28,725 bases of DNA from Vezdaea acicularis. Taxonomy: Eukaryota. The notes below the pieces were generated by a model. That model did no database searches, was not told where the DNA came from, and saw only the letters and a program-made list of their open reading frames with translations. Positions 11,374 through 18,407 of the stretch are shown piece by piece; position 1 is the stretch's first letter, and every line of letters begins with the position of its first letter. A program made the position numbers and the translations under genes. The stretch is taken from positions 310,001 through 338,725 of the forward strand of contig JAPEUI010000003.1 in the NCBI GenBank assembly GCA_026025075.1. Direction: 5' to 3'.

Positions 11374-12984
11374 ATGGCCACGGTGAATTTTATAACGTTT
11401 AATCAAGACCACAGTTGTCTTGCAGTTGGTCAGTTGTTGAGTCTCTTGCAGCAGCTCGAGCATACCTCAAAACAAGAACTGATTTCTTGCCTGCCACAGG
11501 AACATCTCGAGGATTCCGAATATATTACACAGACCCGTTCTCGAAATGCTACGAAAGCAAAGATGGGGACATCTCCCTGGTTGAGATGCTCTTCTCCACA
11601 TCCCTCGTAGCTCTGATACTCTCGCCAAGGCGCTTGCAAATCACGAATACAAAGGTAGGGCAAAAACATGATCCATATTACTCCGGCCGTGGGCACTTGC
11701 CGCCCTCAGAACGGGGTATAATACTTTTTCATGAGGACACTGGCCCCATCCGTTGATTTAATAGATCATGTTCTTGGTACTAACGACAATTCGTACTTAG
11801 AGAGCATCAACGATATGCGAGCTTACATTCCCCTCCTCAGTACTTGCAGTACGGTTGAATCGGAAACGATTAGTGGTGGTTCTCGAGGGGGAGATATATC
11901 TATATGACATTAGCAACATGAAACTTGCACACACAATCGAAACCTCACCTAATCCTCAAGGTATTATCTTATCCCGTACAACCCCCTACCTTTTAGAACA
12001 TACACCTCTAACAGCCGACCAGCGATATGCGCCCTCTCTTCATCCTCCGAATCCTGCTACCTCGCCTACCCCCTTCCCCAAAAAGCGATGCCCACCTCCT
12101 TTGCCCCCCCATCCCATGCACCTCCATCCAGCGGCGCCACAAACGCGCAGTTCATTGCCCCCACCACAGGCGACGTCCTCCTCTTCGACGCCCTTAAACA
12201 AGAAGCCATCAACGTCATCCCCGCGCACCGCTCGCCGCTCTCCTGCCTCGCCCTCAGCGCCGACGGCAAGCTCCTCGCCACCGCCTCCGACAAAGGCACC
12301 ATCATCCGCGTCTTCAGCGTTCCAGACGCCCAGAAACTCTTCCAATTCCGCCGCGGCACCTATCCCAGCCGCATCTACAGCATGGCCTTCAACGCAACCA
12401 ACACCCTCCTCTGCGTCTCCTCCGCAACCGACACCGTCCACATCTTCCGCCTCTCCGCCAGCCCCAACCCACCCCCCCCTAACCGCCCAGACTCTCCCAT
12501 CGAGCGCGGCCGCCTACGCGACTCCAGCCCCGCCATCCAATCCATCGCCAGCACCACCACCACCCAAGACCCCAGTCCCAGCCCGGACACTCCCTCGCGC
12601 AAGCACAACGGCAGCTTCGGAAGCATCATCCGCCGCTCCTCCCAAACCCTCGGCAAGTCCTTCGCCCAGTCCGTCGGCGGCTACCTCCCCACCGCCGTCA
12701 CCGAGATGTGGGAGCCCGCCCGCGACTTTGCCTACTGCAAGATCCCCAAGAGCGCGCTTGCCCAGAGTCCCGGGCCTGGCGGGGCGCCGCTGCAGCAGCA
12801 GACGCTTGGTGGCGCCCCCCTGAGGAGTGTGGTTGCGATCAGTAGCTCGAGTCCGCAGGTCATGGTTGTTACGAGTGAGGGCCTCTTTTATGTGTTTAAT
12901 GTCGATATGGAGGCGGGGGGGGAGGGCGTGCTGTGTAAACAGTACTCACTCGTAGAGGAGATGGGAAGTTTGGGGGATGAGTAG
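11374..12984 (+). CDS. ATG18: Autophagy PROPPIN Atg18 (WD40 phosphoinositide-binding protein). Exons 11374-11428, 11500-11654, 11801-11960, 12023-12984
   Basis: [54 protein letters not shown] and the lipid-binding FRRG motif. Three frame-preserving GT-AG introns. Confidence 0.96.
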
Positions 12985-13489
12985 GATGGGCAGACCTGGG
13001 GGCCAATGGAGGGTAGTGGGATGAGTTGAACGGATCATGTACTGTACTGTAAGAAATGTAGGCTGTTGAAAGGGCATCAAGCCCACGCGAACTCTCCCAT
13101 AACCACAAGCACAAGCACACAAGCAAGCAAACCACACACGTACACCCATTCAGAAAAGCCATACAATCTAACCCTCCCCCACCAGAACCAAATCAAAGGC
13201 AAAAAACAAATGGGGTATCTCCCCGCAATCCACACCCCCCCCCCGCGCAATTCCCCTGCGCTAAGAGTGAAAAACTCCATAGCCACCCAAACCCAGATTA
13301 CCCAGATGAAAGAGCCGTCCCGCGTGAGCATTGACTCACTAATCTCCAAGACATTAAGAGAAAAGGGTGAGTGAGTAGGTTGGTTGGTGGAGGGTTGTGT
13401 GTGTACAAAGCTGCGGAGGCCGCTGCAAGATGCAAGATACATGTATGTGCAAAACAAGAAAAGAAAATCTCCGGTCCGTCCGCGTGGAA

Positions 13490-13510
13490 GAGGAGGAGGA
13501 GGAGGAGGAG
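13490..13510. repeat. (GAG)7 microsatellite
   Basis: Read directly from the sequence. Confidence 0.9.
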
Positions 13511-13740
13511 GGGATATGAGCCGCTGGTCTCTGATAGGTTGGCTAGGGCGAAGGTGCGGGATATGTCCGAAGAAAGAGGGGGTGGGCGTAGTGCTGGGTA
13601 TGTTCGTTATGCGGACAGCCAGACAGAGAGAGGGATGGGTGGTGGTGTACCCTTCTTCTTCTTCCTCTGCTGCTAGTGACGGTGGTGATGGTAGCGGTGC
13701 TGGTGGTGCTGTTGTTCTAGATGTATCAACGCCGCGGTGT

Positions 13741-13984
13741 CGTGGTCCCCAAGAGTAAAGACCGGGTACTTTTGTTTTGTTGTCATGAAACCTCCTCTCC
13801 CTCCCCAGCCTTTCTTTTCCCGCTCCCGCTCTCCCGACGCGAAACGCCGTGGTCCCCAAGAGTAAAGACCGGATACTTTTGTCATGTAAAGCCCCCCTTC
13901 CCCCTCCCCCTCCCACCCACCCTGCCCTTGCTCCCCCAACTCAAAACGCCGTGGTCCCCAAGAGTAAAGACCCCATACTTTTGT
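13741..13984. repeat. Three direct copies of the 35-nt core CGTGGTCCCCAAGAGTAAAGACC-nnn-TACTTTTGT (13741-13775, 13848-13882, 13950-13984), separated by diverged C-rich linkers
   Basis: 32 of 35 positions are identical in all three copies; start-to-start spacing is 107 and 102 nt. A partial fourth copy AAAGACCGGATAC lies at 14138-14150. Confidence 0.95.
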
Positions 13985-14038
13985 CTATCCGCCAATTAAG
14001 CCCACCGTTCATCACATCATTCATCATTATCATACTCG

Positions 14039-14540
14039 CATTACTGCCCAACCTATCTCTACACATCACTCCAGCAACCACCGCACACGCATCGACGCCA
14101 ACACCGCTGTAGTAGCTGCCAGCAGCCACTACACCAAAAAGACCGGATACATTCCCAAAACCCCACCTTCACCGGTTCAACGCGCACAACGACCAGGCCT
14201 CCCAAGAGCCCCCGATGCCGTCTCCCCAAGCACCACGTAGTCTCCTTCCCACCGGCTCGCTCCGCGCGCACGCCAACATGCTGTCGTCAGCCTGACTGGC
14301 ACCGACGAGTGGACTCGTCGGGAGCAGGCATATCATCCTAGGCATGAGTGGCGGCAGCGGCGGAGGCGAGGGTCAGTGGGAGGGTAGCTGCGTGGTGCTT
14401 GGAGAGAGAGATCGGGTGTGGGAGGGTGCTGGTAGGGCTGCGTTGGGGGTGAAAGGCGGGAGGAGGGAGGTACCTGGTTTTTGGGGGTTGGCGAGATGGG
14501 AGGTGGCTCTGGACTGTACAAGAGAAAATGGTTAGTATGG
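14039..14540 (-). other. Long imperfect inverted repeat / predicted rod-like RNA fold-back downstream of the ULP1 stop codon
   Basis: Apical perfect stem 14302-14310/14313-14321; 20-nt near-perfect stem 14221-14240/14388-14407; more than ten further nested, collinear helices out to ~14039/14540; side hairpin at 14108-14133. Confidence 0.8.
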
Positions 14541-14594
14541 TTTGGTTGGAGGGGCGAAGTGGGGGGAGATAAAGCGCAAGGGGATAAGACGTAC
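14514..14594 (-). other. Putative 81-nt spliceosomal intron in the ULP1 3' UTR
   Basis: Minus-strand GTACGT donor at 14594, perfect TACTAAC branch point at 14537-14531, pyrimidine tract, TACAG acceptor ending at 14514. It starts 43 nt after the stop codon. Confidence 0.65.
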
Positions 14595-14637
14595 GATCTG
14601 TGCGGAGAGGGGGACAAGCTTAGTTACTGCTGTGGGG

Positions 14638-16794
14638 CTACTCGTAAGTAGCGCCCATCAGCTCCGCCGCCATCCTCCGTCGCTGGAGGGGAATATCGGT
14701 TTGGTCATAAGCGGTGAGGGGATCAAGGCCGAGTGAGAGCATCTTCGCCGTCGTGCACAAGAAGACGCCACAGTCGGAGCCGTTTTGCTGGCGGCCGCTG
14801 TCTGGGGGAAGGATGGTCCACTCTTCTCGTTTGAACTCAGTCTTGAGCTCGTGCTGCAGCCATTTGAAGGTTTGCATGATCTTGTGGGTGCCGGCGTCTC
14901 CGAAGCTGTCATAGTAGGCAATGGTCTTCTTGGTGGGGCAGGCGACGAGGATTGTCCAGTGCAGGCCCTGATTAACCGGAATGAAGACGTAGTCGACCTT
15001 GAGGAGGTTGCTCTTATCGATCTTGGCCCGCTTGGACCACCTGTCTAGCGACTTAACACCGCTCGAGGAAAGCTTCTTGTAGAAAAAGCTGTTGAAGGCG
15101 TGGAATTTGGGAGTTGTGCCGGGCGTTTGTCCGTGGTTGGCGTGTCGTGTGATTAGCTCGAGATAGTTGTTGATGATCTCGTCGTTCAGCCATCCATGGG
15201 CGGGATCACCTTTACCGGGGAGGAGCGTACCAAAATCTTTACGTGTTATGGTGGTGTTGGTGGGCGTCGTGGCAAGGATGGCTGCACGGTCATCGATCTG
15301 CATCGCGCGATCTACCTTCCAGTTCCATTCGTCGGTCAAAGGCTTGACGGCCCTTTGAGACGGCGGCACACGACCGTCGGCGATTGCCTTGAGGTGTTCA
15401 GCATGTTGCCGTTTAGCTGTTGTTTCCTTTACCTGGGCAATCGCTTCCAGCACCTCGCGTGCTTTACGTTCCTTCCTCATCTTTTCAATCTTGGCCTTCT
15501 CGACTGGGTCCATATCTTCTCTGAGAGGGATTTGTCGAAGCTTTTCTACGACACTCAATGGCCGACCTTCTGGGGTATGGGTGCAATAACGTAAACCAGG
15601 TTGGGGAAATGAACCTGGGTGAGGGACGAACCCCTGCCCTGCCTTTTCGGCGGGCCATTGGCCCTTGTGAGTCATTGCGTAGATATTCGCTGCAACAGCT
15701 CGAAAATCGATATCTTGGATTTTGGTCGGTATGTTGTTCGAATGGGATGGAGGTGATGGCAGGTCTTGCGAGGGATACGTCTTTGCTTTAGGCGTTTGCT
15801 GATACCTCTTTGGAATCGACACGCCCGCAAGCTCCTTAGGTGCCTGAACATGGCCTGGTGAAGGCGTTTGTCGATACCTCTTTGGAATCGATACGCCCGC
15901 AAGTTCCTTAGGTGCCTGAACACGGCCTGGTGAAGGTGTTTTGCGGACGGGCTCGGGCACCTGTTCACGACGCGATATGGAGGGCTGTGGATACCTTGCA
16001 AGAAGGGGAGCTCGTGGAAGTGGACTTGTAGGGCTAATCAGTGCATCGAGAGGGGGTACTGCATGTGGTCGGCGTTTTGGGTAAGTCACGGCCTGAGCCA
16101 CGCGGTCGGCAATCCTCATCGACCGCCTGAGTTGTATCGAGTCCTGTACAAAGCTCCTGCGATCTAGGGGAAGCGGCGTGAATTTTGCGTAGTGGAGATG
16201 CTGTTCTTCAGGCGAGAGGCCCTTCGGTGCAGCTGGTAGAGCGGTCCTTTTAGGAGGAGTAGCCAGTGAGCACATTCGGGCGATTTTCAACTGGAATGTG
16301 CTCAATTGTATAGGTGGATTCATTGGGACGGCTTCTAGGATCAAAGCAAGTCAGCCCATGACACTGGAAGCCACGAAAGACATTATTTCGAGCTCTGGAG
16401 GGATTGTGGAACTCACCCGGAGGGTCTATATCCATTTTCTCAGGCAATACAGGTTTCTCAGTCGTCTCTCCACGTTCGAGATCAACGCTAGCTATAAGAT
16501 CAACCGGGTACGAGCCAGGAAGAACCGGTTCGTAGTAGGGCAACAGGTCTTTGTCGGATTCAGCAGAAGCAGCGAGAAGTTCTCGAGAGCGTGTGAGACC
16601 CCAAAGAACAGCCATCATATGTAAGTTACGAACGATCGCTTGGAAGGCCGCTTTTGCCTTGAGAAGCAAGAGTTGTGAGTACCACACCGATCGGTCGGGA
16701 AGAGGAGGAGGAAACGACATACCCTTCGGACGATGGCCCAGTCCCGACGCATGAAGCGCCGGCGGGCCCCTCTGGCCACGTCCTTAAAGGACAT
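14638..16794 (-). CDS. ULP1: Ulp1-family SUMO protease (peptidase C48). Exons 16794-16723, 16657-16417, 16334-14638; the start codon is tentative
   Basis: WLNDEIIN, FNSFFY, catalytic His (GLHWT), Asp (YYDS), Gln/Cys (QQNGSDCGVF). Upstream ORFs join in frame through GTATGT..TACTCAC..AAG and GTGAGT..GCTGAC..TAG introns. Confidence 0.9.
15791..15934 (-). repeat. 72-bp tandem duplication (2 x 24 aa) in the ULP1 N-terminal region
   Basis: 15791-15862 and 15863-15934 differ at 5 positions; they encode TPSPG(R/H)VQAPKELAGVSIPKRY(R/Q)Q. Confidence 0.95.
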
Positions 16795-17228
16795 GCGGAG
16801 GGCAGATAGATTATCGAGTAGTTGATTGAATTGAGGTTCAGGTGAAGTATGAGAGCTGGCTGATCACCAGCGGAAGAATATGAAAGTTCGTTCACGAGTC
16901 ACTGTGTTGTGGTGTGTGTGGTGGGGGAGAGACGAGATGAAAGAAAAGAAGAGGGCATACGCGACACATGCATGCGTAACGGCAGGTCCCGTGGTGGGCG
17001 GTCGAAGCTTATGCGGAAGCGTGCCGCACTAAACTTAAATTGGGAGCCGAGGCTCATCTCACTGGGCGATCCCCTCTTGACCTCTATCCACAACCTTAAA
17101 ACGCCTCCCGCCTCGATTCATGTTTGGGGTTTTATTGCCCATAGTTCGCAATGACGCTTGACCCCAAGCGCCGAGTAGAGGAACAGCCCCAAGCCCCGCG
17201 GCCGAGCAATGTAGGCTCCGTCAAAAGC

Positions 17229-18407
17229 ATGCCCTCGCCGCAGAGACATCCCGAGGACGGACGAACAGAGTAAGCTCCCCTCTTCCCCCCCCTCACGCCT
17301 TCCACACTCCAACCACAACCGCAACGAGCAATCCGTGTAAGAGTCATCAACACCATACATAAACAAAACACCAAGCAACAAATAAAACAAACACTAACCC
17401 CCCTCCCACCTCTCACAGCCGGCTCTCCCAAAAAATCATAATCCTAACCGGCGCCAACTCCCCCCTCGGCATCGGGCTCGCCAGCGCGCACCAATACGCT
17501 TACCACGGGGCGCACGCGCTCTACCTCTGCGACCTCGAGTCCACCCACCTCGCCACGCACGCCCACACCCTCACTGCACAATACCCTAACGTAGAAGTAC
17601 ACATCCGACAGTTCGACGCGGCGGACGAAGCGGCGGTGCGCGAGGTGGTGCAGCATGCGTTAGAGCGGTATGGGCGGCTGGATGTGTTTCTGGCGAATGC
17701 GGGGACGGTGGGAGGGGGGAGTAGGGTGTTTGCGGAGGTGGGGGCGGAGGAGTTCATGCGCACGCTGAGGATCAATGTTTTGAGGTGAGTTTGTCTTGGT
17801 GTTGCTACAACGAGGGAAAAAGGGGAGAGGGGGTTACGGGGATATATGGGATAGGGCTGATTTGGCTTGGTTGAGCTAAAGTGTGTTTTTGGCGGCCAAG
17901 TACGCGGCGCCGGCTATGAAGCGGACGAGCGCTGGCAAACCCACTGCGTCGGGCTCGATCATCGGGATGGCGTCGGTCGCTGGGCTTCGATCGAATGCAG
18001 GTTCCAGTACGATACAACTCCCTAACCCCGGCCCCTATATTGTCCCTCTATTGCTAACCCAGAGTTCTCCGCTAGCCGACTATTCGGCCTCCAAGGCCGC
18101 CGTGATCTCGATCGTGCAGACGATAGCCTGGCAGCTATTCGGCACGGGGATCCGCTGCAACGCGATCTGTCCGGGGCTGATCGAGACGGGGATGACGTCG
18201 ACGATGTTCGAGCAGGCGCGGGCGCGGGGGATGGAGAAGAACGTCGGGCAGCTGAACCCGGCGAGGAGGGCCGGGCATGCCGACGAGGTGGCCCGCGTCG
18301 CGCTGTTTTTGGGGAGTGATGATAGCAGCTATGTTAATGGCCAGGCGTGGGCGGTGGATGGGGGCTTGAGCGCTGGTCTTCCCTTTGTTCCGGGGAAGTT
18401 GGCGTGA
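17229..18407 (+). CDS. Short-chain dehydrogenase/reductase (FabG-like). Exons 17229-17269, 17419-17784, 17882-18006, 18076-18407; the 5' half is missing from the ORF track
   Basis: [14 protein letters not shown] (Rossmann), [14 protein letters not shown], catalytic ASVAG and [31 protein letters not shown] introns with CTAAC/CTAAA branch points. Confidence 0.92.

What the first reader, a model, noticed from the sequence alone, without database searches (positions are those of the whole stretch)
14338..14637. Apparent 3'-UTR introns of ULP1 whose splice signals are buried in the fold-back
Seen: intron A 14594-14514 (GTACGT, TACTAAC, TACAG), a 40-nt exon 14513-14474, then a candidate intron B 14473-14338 (CAG|GTACCT, CACTGAC, TAG). 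The branch point and 3' splice site of A pair with 14039-14065, and the donor of B pairs with ~14134-14150. Established: 3'-UTR introns are uncommon in fungi, and junctions more than ~50 nt past a stop can promote EJC-dependent NMD in filamentous fungi. Junction A is 43 nt past the stop and junction B would be 83 nt past it. Inference: structure-controlled splicing could tune SUMO-protease mRNA levels, and removing B would delete the inner 5' arm of the hairpin.
Basis: partly seen in the sequence, partly recalled or inferred. Interest (0 to 1): 0.7.

Follow-up and report, generated by a model that had tools for sequence, protein, structure and literature searches.

The report
Hairpin-locked intron in ULP1 3' UTR
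The non-coding tail of this fungus's SUMO-protease gene appears to hold two introns, and a long fold-back in the RNA covers the splice signals of the second one, which could decide whether the message survives or is destroyed, although nothing yet shows that the cell uses it as a switch.

Summary
The fold-back is real (z about -12; top of 15,255 positions scanned in this genome). But only 14513-14314 with 14309-14070 is specific: the 40-nt exon plus intron B. Intron A pairs no better than chance, and its branch point opens for 1.2 kcal/mol, so A is not buried. With A removed, the bases upstream of it extend the stem across the junction (p about 0.01-0.07). B's donor and branch point are buried (11 and 15 kcal/mol). 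Best reading: A is spliced early and constitutively; the stem, probably from a lineage-specific inverted duplication, then locks B in; the B-spliced minority (junction 83 nt past the stop) would go to NMD. Against a selected switch: no G·U strand bias, other single-copy inverted repeats in the genome, and 0 of 34 fungal ULP1 loci with such an intron (0 of 32 with such a stem). No spliced form restores ULP1's lost C-terminal tail. Splicing itself is untested.

The parts
14638..16335 (-). ULP1 (Smt3/SUMO protease, Peptidase_C48) last coding exon; TAG stop 14640-14638; ends 5 residues after the last conserved helix, lacking the NGG(F/L)xG(D/E)FxP tail of most homologs
14595..14637 (-). 43-nt 3'-UTR exon; 14608-14599 pairs with 14056-14065 once A is spliced out
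   Evidence: pair probability 0.84-0.99; p about 0.01-0.07
14514..14594 (-). Intron A, 81 nt, consensus donor, branch point and acceptor; predicted to be spliced early and constitutively; not a specific part of the stem
14474..14513 (-). 40-nt exon; outermost specific part of the 5' arm (pairs with 14150-14068)
   Evidence: z -4.7, 0 of 500 shuffles
14338..14473 (-). Candidate intron B, 136 nt; also the main 5' arm of the stem; donor and branch point(s) (14378-14372; weaker alternative 14348-14344) buried
   Evidence: (z -3.0 to -7.5); a GTACCT donor also fits a frame-restoring intron in L024
14302..14321 (-). Apical 8-bp stem with a 4-nt loop; centre of the fold-back at about 14311
   Evidence: p 1.0
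14056..14309 (-). 3' arm of the stem (G/U-rich); holds the partner of the 17-bp helix (14237-14221), the anti-donor-B element (14150-14134) and an 11-bp side hairpin (14133-14108)
13990..14055 (-). Outer G/U-rich stretch that pairs with intron A in the unspliced model only as well as composition predicts
13741..13989 (.). Three 40-nt direct repeats (83-100% alike, spacing 107 and 102); the middle copy shares 13 exact nt with the anti-donor-B element; weaker partners of donor B than the arm copy
   Evidence: (-17.8 to -19.6 vs -22.0 kcal/mol)
13214..13219 (-). GATACC element of the kind found shortly after the stop in most fungal ULP1 loci; here 1,418 nt after the stop, hinting at a 3' UTR of about 1.5 kb

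Best explanation
The ULP1 message of this fungus has a lineage-specific, enlarged 3' UTR. Intron A has near-perfect signals that stay open for about 440 nt of further transcription, so it is spliced early and constitutively, leaving a junction 43 nt past the stop. A local inverted duplication made 14309-14056 complementary to the 40-nt exon and intron B. As the polymerase moves on, this arm zips onto B, closing its branch point about 90 nt and its donor about 200 nt after B's acceptor is made, and ends in a stem of about 550 nt whose base is completed across the A junction. B, whose signals are weaker, therefore mostly loses the race and is retained. The main mRNA is A-spliced, B-retained and folded, with its long UTR physically shortened by about 470 nt. 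The minority in which B is removed first carries a junction 83 nt past the stop and is an EJC-NMD substrate. The stem is a lock on a leaky intron, not necessarily a regulated switch. Shown: signals, specific complementarity, predicted order of closure, presence of Mago and UPF1. Inferred: transcription through the arm, actual splicing, retention of B, NMD, origin by duplication.
For: A and B beat chance, and A matches this genome's enriched donor and branch-point words. The 300 nt after the stop are more C-rich (skew -0.62) than after any of 243 long ORFs of this genome; 4 of the 6 most C-rich of those had their stop inside a splice donor, so this composition is intron-like. The stem is the top score of 15,255 centres and survives dinucleotide block shuffles (z -12.5), while 8 of the 11 comparison sites fall to |z| <= 1.3. 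Specific pairing starts exactly at the first base after A's acceptor and is absent inside A. After removal of A the upstream 15-18 nt extend the helix better than 98-99% of shuffled or composition-matched pieces and rank 1st of 285 (15 nt) and 2nd of 282 (18 nt) windows of the same arm. Prefix folds and opening energies give the order of closure. Local duplication is common here: three tandem repeats next door and a 72-nt tandem duplication in the ULP1 coding sequence; other single-copy inverted repeats in the genome. Mago and UPF1 are present. Spliced 3'-UTR introns trigger EJC-dependent NMD in Neurospora (PMC10578600, PMC7746235, passages).
Against: The poly(A) site is unknown: no AATAAA, ATTAAA or AATGAA on either strand of 12985-14650. 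The stem is equally stable on both strands (-243.8 vs -241.7 kcal/mol; confident G·U pairs 6.8 vs 6.4), whereas this genome's RNase MRP RNA shows a clear sense bias (-162 vs -135; 12.2 vs 3.6), so nothing marks it as shaped on this RNA strand. The junction fit is modest: 115 of 2000 shuffles match it at 12 nt, and 179 of 1000 when the whole 43-nt leader is shuffled. Over a 150-nt window the C-richness is matched by 2 of 524 other ORFs. Not conserved in distant ULP1 loci.
Confidence: 0.45

Rival explanations
1. Selected regulatory switch: the cell changes the balance between stem closure and B splicing (elongation rate, temperature, a helicase or a SUMO-sensitive splicing factor) and so sets how much ULP1 mRNA goes to NMD.
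For: B's branch point closes only 84-91 nt past its acceptor, a workable race. B keeps a CAG|GTA donor while the mirrored copy in the other arm has no GT at that place (alignment). The stem fits the A-spliced RNA. NMD and EJC genes are present. Long-range pairing controls splicing in Neurospora (PMC3597705, abstract).
Against: No aptamer. The only alternative partners of donor B, the three repeats, take 1% or less of the pairing. No G·U strand bias. No conservation in 34 loci.
Confidence: 0.2
2. The fold-back is a neutral DNA relic without effect on splicing: A and B are both removed before the 3' arm exists, or the message ends before the arm is complete.
For: Equal stability on both strands; 63% arm identity with many gaps; other single-copy inverted repeats in 790 kb; all B signals are open until at least 60 nt past its acceptor.
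Against: A constitutive junction 83 nt past the stop should destabilise every ULP1 mRNA if the >=50-nt rule holds (PMC6173133, passages). The helix continues across the A junction. The GATACC element at 13219 hints that transcription passes the whole arm.
Confidence: 0.17
3. The unit is, or yields, a separate RNA: a Pol II non-coding RNA with a 5' intron packed behind ULP1 (or on the opposite strand), or a Dicer-processed milRNA/siRNA precursor.
For: The C-rich to G-rich run resembles whole short genes of this genome. Two Dicer and three Piwi-domain loci are encoded. 173 predicted pairs in 444 nt.
Against: No Rfam family near its cut-off (best E 0.064). Longest unbroken helix 17 bp. No room for a promoter or for ULP1's own 3' UTR. 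No telomerase template on the minus strand; RNase MRP lies elsewhere. No other genomic copy or target found by DNA search.
Confidence: 0.1
4. The stop lies inside a weak donor (14641, GTAGCC): a 44-nt intron, a 3-nt microexon, A and the 40-nt exon extend the protein in frame, so A and B are coding-region introns; or one 657-nt intron, its ends joined by the stem, runs to 13985.
For: A branch-point-like word and a CAG acceptor at 14598; the frame stays open; the protein lacks the usual tail; other stops followed by C-rich DNA were often donors.
Against: GTAGCC and CTAAG are not enriched in this genome (2 vs 1.96 and 41 vs 38 expected); 44 nt is below the usual 45-65; this grade occurs in 177 of 5000 shuffles. 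Spliced forms score 73.3-75.6 bits against a tail profile vs 76.3 unspliced, while real tails add a median 14.9. 3 other proteins of the 94 parsed also end 5 residues after the helix. The junction helix uses the very bases this intron would remove.
Confidence: 0.08

Closest known systems
Neurospora crassa 3'-UTR-intron NMD substrates (EJC-dependent; Zhang and Sachs 2015, seen only as cited in PMC10578600, PMC7746235, PMC6173133, PMC9801653)
   Same: Spliceosomal introns downstream of the normal stop in a filamentous ascomycete that encodes Mago and UPF1; about 3% of Podospora genes have 3'-UTR introns (PMC9801653, passage).
   Different: Here the second intron is itself one arm of a stem of several hundred bases; the locus is not an NMD or EJC factor; splicing and decay are untested.
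Fungal TPP riboswitch splicing control by long-distance pairing, N. crassa NCU01977 (PMC3597705, abstract); plant THIC 3'-UTR riboswitch (recalled)
   Same: Pairing over hundreds of bases near a 5' splice site sets splice-site use; in THIC the outcome is an unstable 3' UTR (recalled).
   Different: No aptamer, no ligand, no second structure of similar strength, no conservation across fungi; the pairing covers the donor rather than activating it.
Zipper stems of yeast introns (RPL7B, PMC12311795, abstract)
   Same: Pre-mRNA structure acting on a weak intron.
   Different: Zipper stems lie inside the intron and bring donor and branch point together; here the intron pairs with the downstream exon and both signals are covered.
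3'-UTR fold-back that suppresses NMD (PMC2689704, abstract)
   Same: A stem shortens the physical distance from the stop to the 3' end (1,337 to about 866 nt as far as the GATACC element).
   Different: That work used engineered human reporters; here natural, fungal, and the 3' end is not mapped.
MITE / fold-back DNA elements in introns and UTRs (recalled)
   Same: Decayed inverted repeat, equally stable on both strands.
   Different: Single copy, no target-site duplication or sharp terminal repeats seen, arms only 63% alike.

Membership tests
EJC-dependent NMD substrate through a 3'-UTR intron | Intron signals downstream of a true stop codon | tested here: met
EJC-dependent NMD substrate through a 3'-UTR intron | A spliced junction about 50 nt or more past the stop | tested here: inconclusive
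   A gives 43 nt, B would give 83 nt; splicing not observed; junctions under 50 nt can also act in vertebrates (PMC7310861, abstract)
EJC-dependent NMD substrate through a 3'-UTR intron | EJC and UPF1 encoded | tested here: met
   Mago, UPF1; Y14, eIF4A3, UPF2 and UPF3 not searched
EJC-dependent NMD substrate through a 3'-UTR intron | Isoform stabilised when NMD is lost | not testable with these tools
   needs RNA data
Riboswitch-type splicing control | Ligand-binding aptamer | tested here: not met
   no Rfam match near cut-off in 12900-14800; an undescribed aptamer would be missed
Riboswitch-type splicing control | Two mutually exclusive structures of similar stability | tested here: not met
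   repeats take 0-1% of donor-B pairing vs 88-90% for the arm, though they lower its opening cost from 11 to 6 kcal/mol
Riboswitch-type splicing control | Conserved, covarying pairing across species | tested here: inconclusive
   absent from 32 distant loci; no relative above 51% protein identity was available
Zipper stem | Both strands inside one intron, between donor and branch point | tested here: not met
   B pairs with the downstream exon
MITE / fold-back transposon | Several copies in the genome | tested here: not met
   one match only; that search can miss diverged or simple-sequence copies
MITE / fold-back transposon | Terminal inverted repeats with target-site duplication | tested here: inconclusive
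   none seen by eye at three possible end pairs; ends are decayed
Stwintron | An internal intron splits the donor, branch point or acceptor of another | tested here: not met
   A and B are separated by a 40-nt exon; no split signal apparent by inspection; definition from the listing
milRNA / hairpin siRNA precursor | Dicer and Argonaute encoded | tested here: met
milRNA / hairpin siRNA precursor | Discrete 19-25-nt products from the arms | not testable with these tools
   needs small-RNA reads
Pezizomycotina telomerase RNA | Template of about 1.5 telomere repeats in the transcript (PMC3592445, PMC3603654, passages) | tested here: not met
   telomeres are TTAGGG; no match of 7 nt or more on the minus strand of 12000-17500; only 8-mers on the plus strand at 13168 and 12477

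The most novel reading that the evidence does not exclude
An ordered, protein-free timer in a fungal 3' UTR: splicing of intron A completes the base of a stem of about 550 nt, and the race between closure of that stem and recognition of intron B sets the share of SUMO-protease mRNA sent to NMD, so that elongation rate, temperature or the SUMO state of the splicing machinery feeds back on ULP1 levels.
Probability: 0.15. Interest if true: 0.72.

Novelty: new variant of a known kind. Interest (0 to 1): 0.4.

Why it matters
If B is really gated, this is a natural case of an intron silenced by its own downstream exon, coupling co-transcriptional folding to NMD for a SUMO protease, and it shows how a local inverted duplication can create or neutralise an NMD signal in one lineage. 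It is testable with one RT-PCR and a heterologous reporter. If B is simply locked in or the stem is neutral, it is a curiosity of one genome, but the corrected gene end (3'-UTR introns, long UTR, lost C-terminal tail) still matters for annotation.

Tried and rejected
RNA evidence: no RNA holder was listed for 13000-16400; this is no evidence either way, and no reads were laid. Other genomes: an exact 22-nt repeat pattern found nothing in metagenome contigs; a 17-nt core-helix pattern hit 12 viral contigs, none extending beyond 19 nt; 80 ULP1-like loci showed no DNA similarity beyond simple sequence and none of four neighbouring genes tested. Known RNAs: Rfam gave 8 weak matches, all far below cut-off; the telomerase RNA model search of the genome was uninformative; RNase MRP lies on another contig; RNase P gave one weak candidate elsewhere. 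Hidden protein gene: 15 frames (14 from this interval, 1 control) gave no Pfam match at cut-off; two frames gave no atlas hit; no codon-model support, and period-3 signal in only 3 of 17 windows, not matching one frame. A resemblance between a frame of the repeats and the conserved tail was not significant (75.5 bits; 56% of 3000 random acceptors did as well). A supposed GTAGCC donor in L140 that would have supported the 44-nt intron turned out to be the antisense shadow of a plus-strand ORF. Self-trained splice matrices were too noisy to use (4 introns only in the C-rich class), so rule-based classes were used. The exact A deletion ranks 3 of 53 among 81-nt deletions and 9 of 441 within 10 nt, but 2240 of 5340 overall: not decisive. 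Literature: 0 papers held all of 'UTR intron, inverted repeat, hairpin, Ascomycota, nonsense-mediated'; 3 unrelated papers for ULP1 with splicing terms; 0 for the GATACC motif (whole-word matching, so weak); a search on the host lineage listed 6 papers, none on this locus by title. The Zhang and Sachs paper is not held, so its distance rule for fungi is second-hand. No supplements were read.

Full report
Setting. The window lies in an 18.9-Mb fungal assembly (G000) with TTAGGG telomeres. The minus-strand ORF ending at 14638 is a Peptidase_C48 protein (E 4.5e-26) whose nearest relatives, at about 50% identity, are Pezizomycotina Ulp1/Smt3 proteases. A public gene model, P0121, maps to three exons and ends at the same stop; it may be a pure prediction and is not evidence on splicing. 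A PROPPIN-family gene (ATG18-like; name recalled) ends at 12984 on the plus strand, leaving 1.65 kb between two convergent stops.

The introns. In 590 kb of this genome the donors enriched upstream of branch-point-plus-acceptor anchors are GTAAGT, GTATGT, GTAAGC, GTAAGA, GTGAGT and, more weakly, GTACGT; CTAAC, CTAAT and CTGAC are the enriched branch words; lengths peak at 45-65 nt. A fits this. Under a broad consensus rule, pseudo-introns occur at 0.10 per kb on the antisense strand of long ORFs, and 2 of 98 apparent terminal ORFs have one starting within 100 nt of the stop. Under rules cut to each candidate, A-grade signals occur 0 times in 234,921 antisense nt and in 1 of 5000 block shuffles, B-grade 6 times and in 15 of 5000; these rules are post hoc. 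B's donor lacks +5 G but has CAG before it, and the same hexamer opens a frame-restoring, C-rich 57-nt intron in a DUF202 gene. C-rich introns of 116-150 nt occur (3 of the 4 found). B's branch point is far from its acceptor (39 nt). I rate A as very likely real and B as likely splice-competent.

Is the stop real? 94 of 120 homologs could be parsed; their tails after the last helix have a median of 14.5 residues with a conserved NGG(F/L)xG(D/E)FxP motif, while this protein and 3 others end after 5. The 300 nt after the stop are extremely C-rich (skew -0.62, beyond all 243 long ORFs; over the first 200 nt the 34 homolog loci range from -0.27 to +0.39). In this genome such stops are often inside a donor (4 of the 6 printed), and here too the stop reads G|TAG with a CAG 44 nt on and a 3-nt piece before donor A, all in frame. 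I tested this. No spliced form gains on a profile of homolog tails (73.3-75.6 bits vs 76.3 unspliced; best of 83 acceptors 79.6; real tails add 11-17). The donor and branch words are not enriched, and this grade arises in 177 of 5000 shuffles. The stop stands, with about 8% left for an extension.

The fold-back. 14640-13990 folds at -290.6 kcal/mol (z -11.6; -7.5 and -11.8 with block shuffles that keep local composition). An arm-against-arm alignment scores highest of 11,535 centres and above 3,720 more. Short genes here run C-rich to G-rich and mimic stems, but that is composition: with dinucleotide block shuffles 8 of 11 comparison sites fall to |z| <= 1.3, while this one stays at -12.5; L127 (-12.0), L022 (-4.0) and L026 (-2.6) are other inverted repeats. 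Segment by segment, specific pairing covers the 40-nt exon (z -4.7) and intron B (-3.5, -7.5, -3.0) and weakens at the apex (-1.8). It is absent for both halves of intron A (-1.0, +1.0) and for the leader in the unspliced register (+0.5). The true core is 14513-14314 with 14309-14070.

The A junction. With A removed the fold loses only 13 kcal/mol, and 14608-14599 pairs with 14056-14065 (p 0.92-0.99), continuing the helix across the junction. For 15 and 18 upstream bases, 50 and 28 of 2000 shuffles and 25 and 28 of 2000 composition-matched genome pieces do as well; for 12 bases, 115 and 145. Shuffling the whole 43-nt leader gives 179 of 1000. This is suggestive, not strong. It is independent support that 14594-14514 is a discrete insert bounded by splice sites: either the stem was shaped on spliced RNA, or A entered one arm after the duplication. 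It also argues against the 44-nt intron, which would remove these bases.

Order of events. In prefix folds B's branch point is open 60 nt past B's acceptor (0.87 unpaired) and closed at 100 nt (0.15); the donor closes near 200 nt; A's signals stay largely open until the RNA passes about 14078 (distances). In the finished RNA, opening costs 15.4 (branch B), 7.3 (alternative branch B), 11.1 (donor B), 0.6 (acceptor B), 8.5 (donor A), 1.2 (branch A) and 2.9 kcal/mol (acceptor A). So structure can gate B, hardly A. These are equilibrium predictions on naked RNA.

Extent of the UTR. No common poly(A) hexamer was found. GATACC lies within 300 nt after the stop in 21 of 34 fungal ULP1 loci and in 0 of their reverse strands. 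Here the first minus-strand copy is at 13219; its flanks score in the top 11 of 337 sites of this genome against the homolog profile. The motif is also mildly general (35 of 318 ORFs vs 19 for the reverse motif), so it may belong to another transcript, but it hints that about 1.3 kb was added between the stop and the old 3' UTR. The stem would loop out about 470 nt of that, which could counter long-UTR decay (PMC2689704, abstract; human reporters).

Origin and selection. The arms are 63% identical with many gaps. Mismatches favour G·U on neither strand (11 vs 13; isolated ones 1-2 vs 2-4), and both strands fold equally, unlike RNase MRP RNA used as a control. Three tandem repeats nearby are related to the anti-donor-B element (13 exact nt in the middle copy), and the coding sequence holds a 72-nt tandem duplication. 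A local inverted duplication is the simplest origin. The unit is single-copy. Of the 80 ULP1-like loci fetched, I took 35 as Pezizomycotina by their tails; 34 had enough downstream DNA for the intron test (0 positive) and 32 for the stem test (best 59 vs 120-128). None is a close relative, so this shows only that the feature is not ancient. Whether selection keeps it cannot be told from one genome.

Machinery. Mago, UPF1, three Piwi-domain loci and two Dicer loci are encoded. In Neurospora, spliced 3'-UTR introns trigger EJC-dependent NMD and long UTRs trigger EJC-independent NMD (PMC10578600 and PMC7746235, passages); the 50-nt figure is the general rule in PMC6173133 (passages), and shorter distances can act in vertebrates (PMC7310861, abstract), so junction A is not certainly harmless. 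About 3% of Podospora genes have 3'-UTR introns (PMC9801653, passage).

Verdict. The best reading (0.45) is early splicing of A, then a stem that locks B in, with leak to NMD. A regulated switch is 0.2, a neutral relic 0.17, a separate RNA 0.1, a coding extension 0.08. It works like structure-gated splicing coupled to NMD, but it is not a riboswitch, zipper stem, stwintron, MITE family or telomerase RNA by the tests above. I found no description of such an element in the searches, which cover only the held library. Three earlier notes of this scan describe fold-backs inside fungal introns; they are unchecked, and suggest that such stems are not rare. New variant of a known kind; interest 0.4.

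Noticed in passing
window 13741-13989: Three 40-nt direct repeats separated by G-rich (minus-strand) spacers; exact copies of their core only here in the genome; each is a weaker anti-donor-B element.
   Followed up: partly
window 13740-13040, minus strand: A second C-rich to G-rich run with weak intron-like stretches (13769-13717, 13650-13594) and a 287-codon open frame without Pfam or atlas match; either the far 3' UTR of ULP1 or a separate small unit.
   Followed up: partly
L036-L066, L071, L073, L074, L078, L079 (after the ULP1 stop); window 13219: GATACC(C/T) is a strand-specific 3'-UTR element in 21 of 34 fungal ULP1 loci; I could not name the factor that binds it.
   Followed up: partly
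L127:5092-5390: Inverted repeat of about 300 nt directly before a tRNA gene, z -12, folding 31 kcal/mol better on the plus strand; no Rfam match. Possibly a structured RNA or a fold-back element.
   Followed up: partly
L132:6429-6563; L022:7136-7746; L121:788-1128: Further inverted repeats, one with a long perfect stem; copy number not searched.
   Followed up: no
L024:2037-2690; L140:545-1147; window 12000-13000: GC-rich genes of this genome run strongly C-rich at the 5' end and G-rich at the 3' end, introns included, which creates compositional pseudo-hairpins and intron-like shadows on the antisense strand.
   Followed up: partly
window 15790-15933: 72-nt in-frame tandem duplication (93% alike) in the ULP1 N-terminal region.
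   Followed up: no
window 17785-17881: The intron of the short-chain dehydrogenase gene is G-rich and seems to end in AAG rather than YAG.
   Followed up: no
window 14035-13985, minus strand: A donor-like GTATGA at the end of the 3' arm could form a 51-nt intron or, by back-splicing to acceptor A, a rod-like circle of about 480 nt; signals are weak and this was not tested.
   Followed up: no
G000:C41:32273-32736 (-); G000:C315:7399-7752 (+): RNase MRP RNA (96.6 bits) and a weak RNase P RNA candidate (18.8 bits); the telomerase RNA gene was not located.
   Followed up: no
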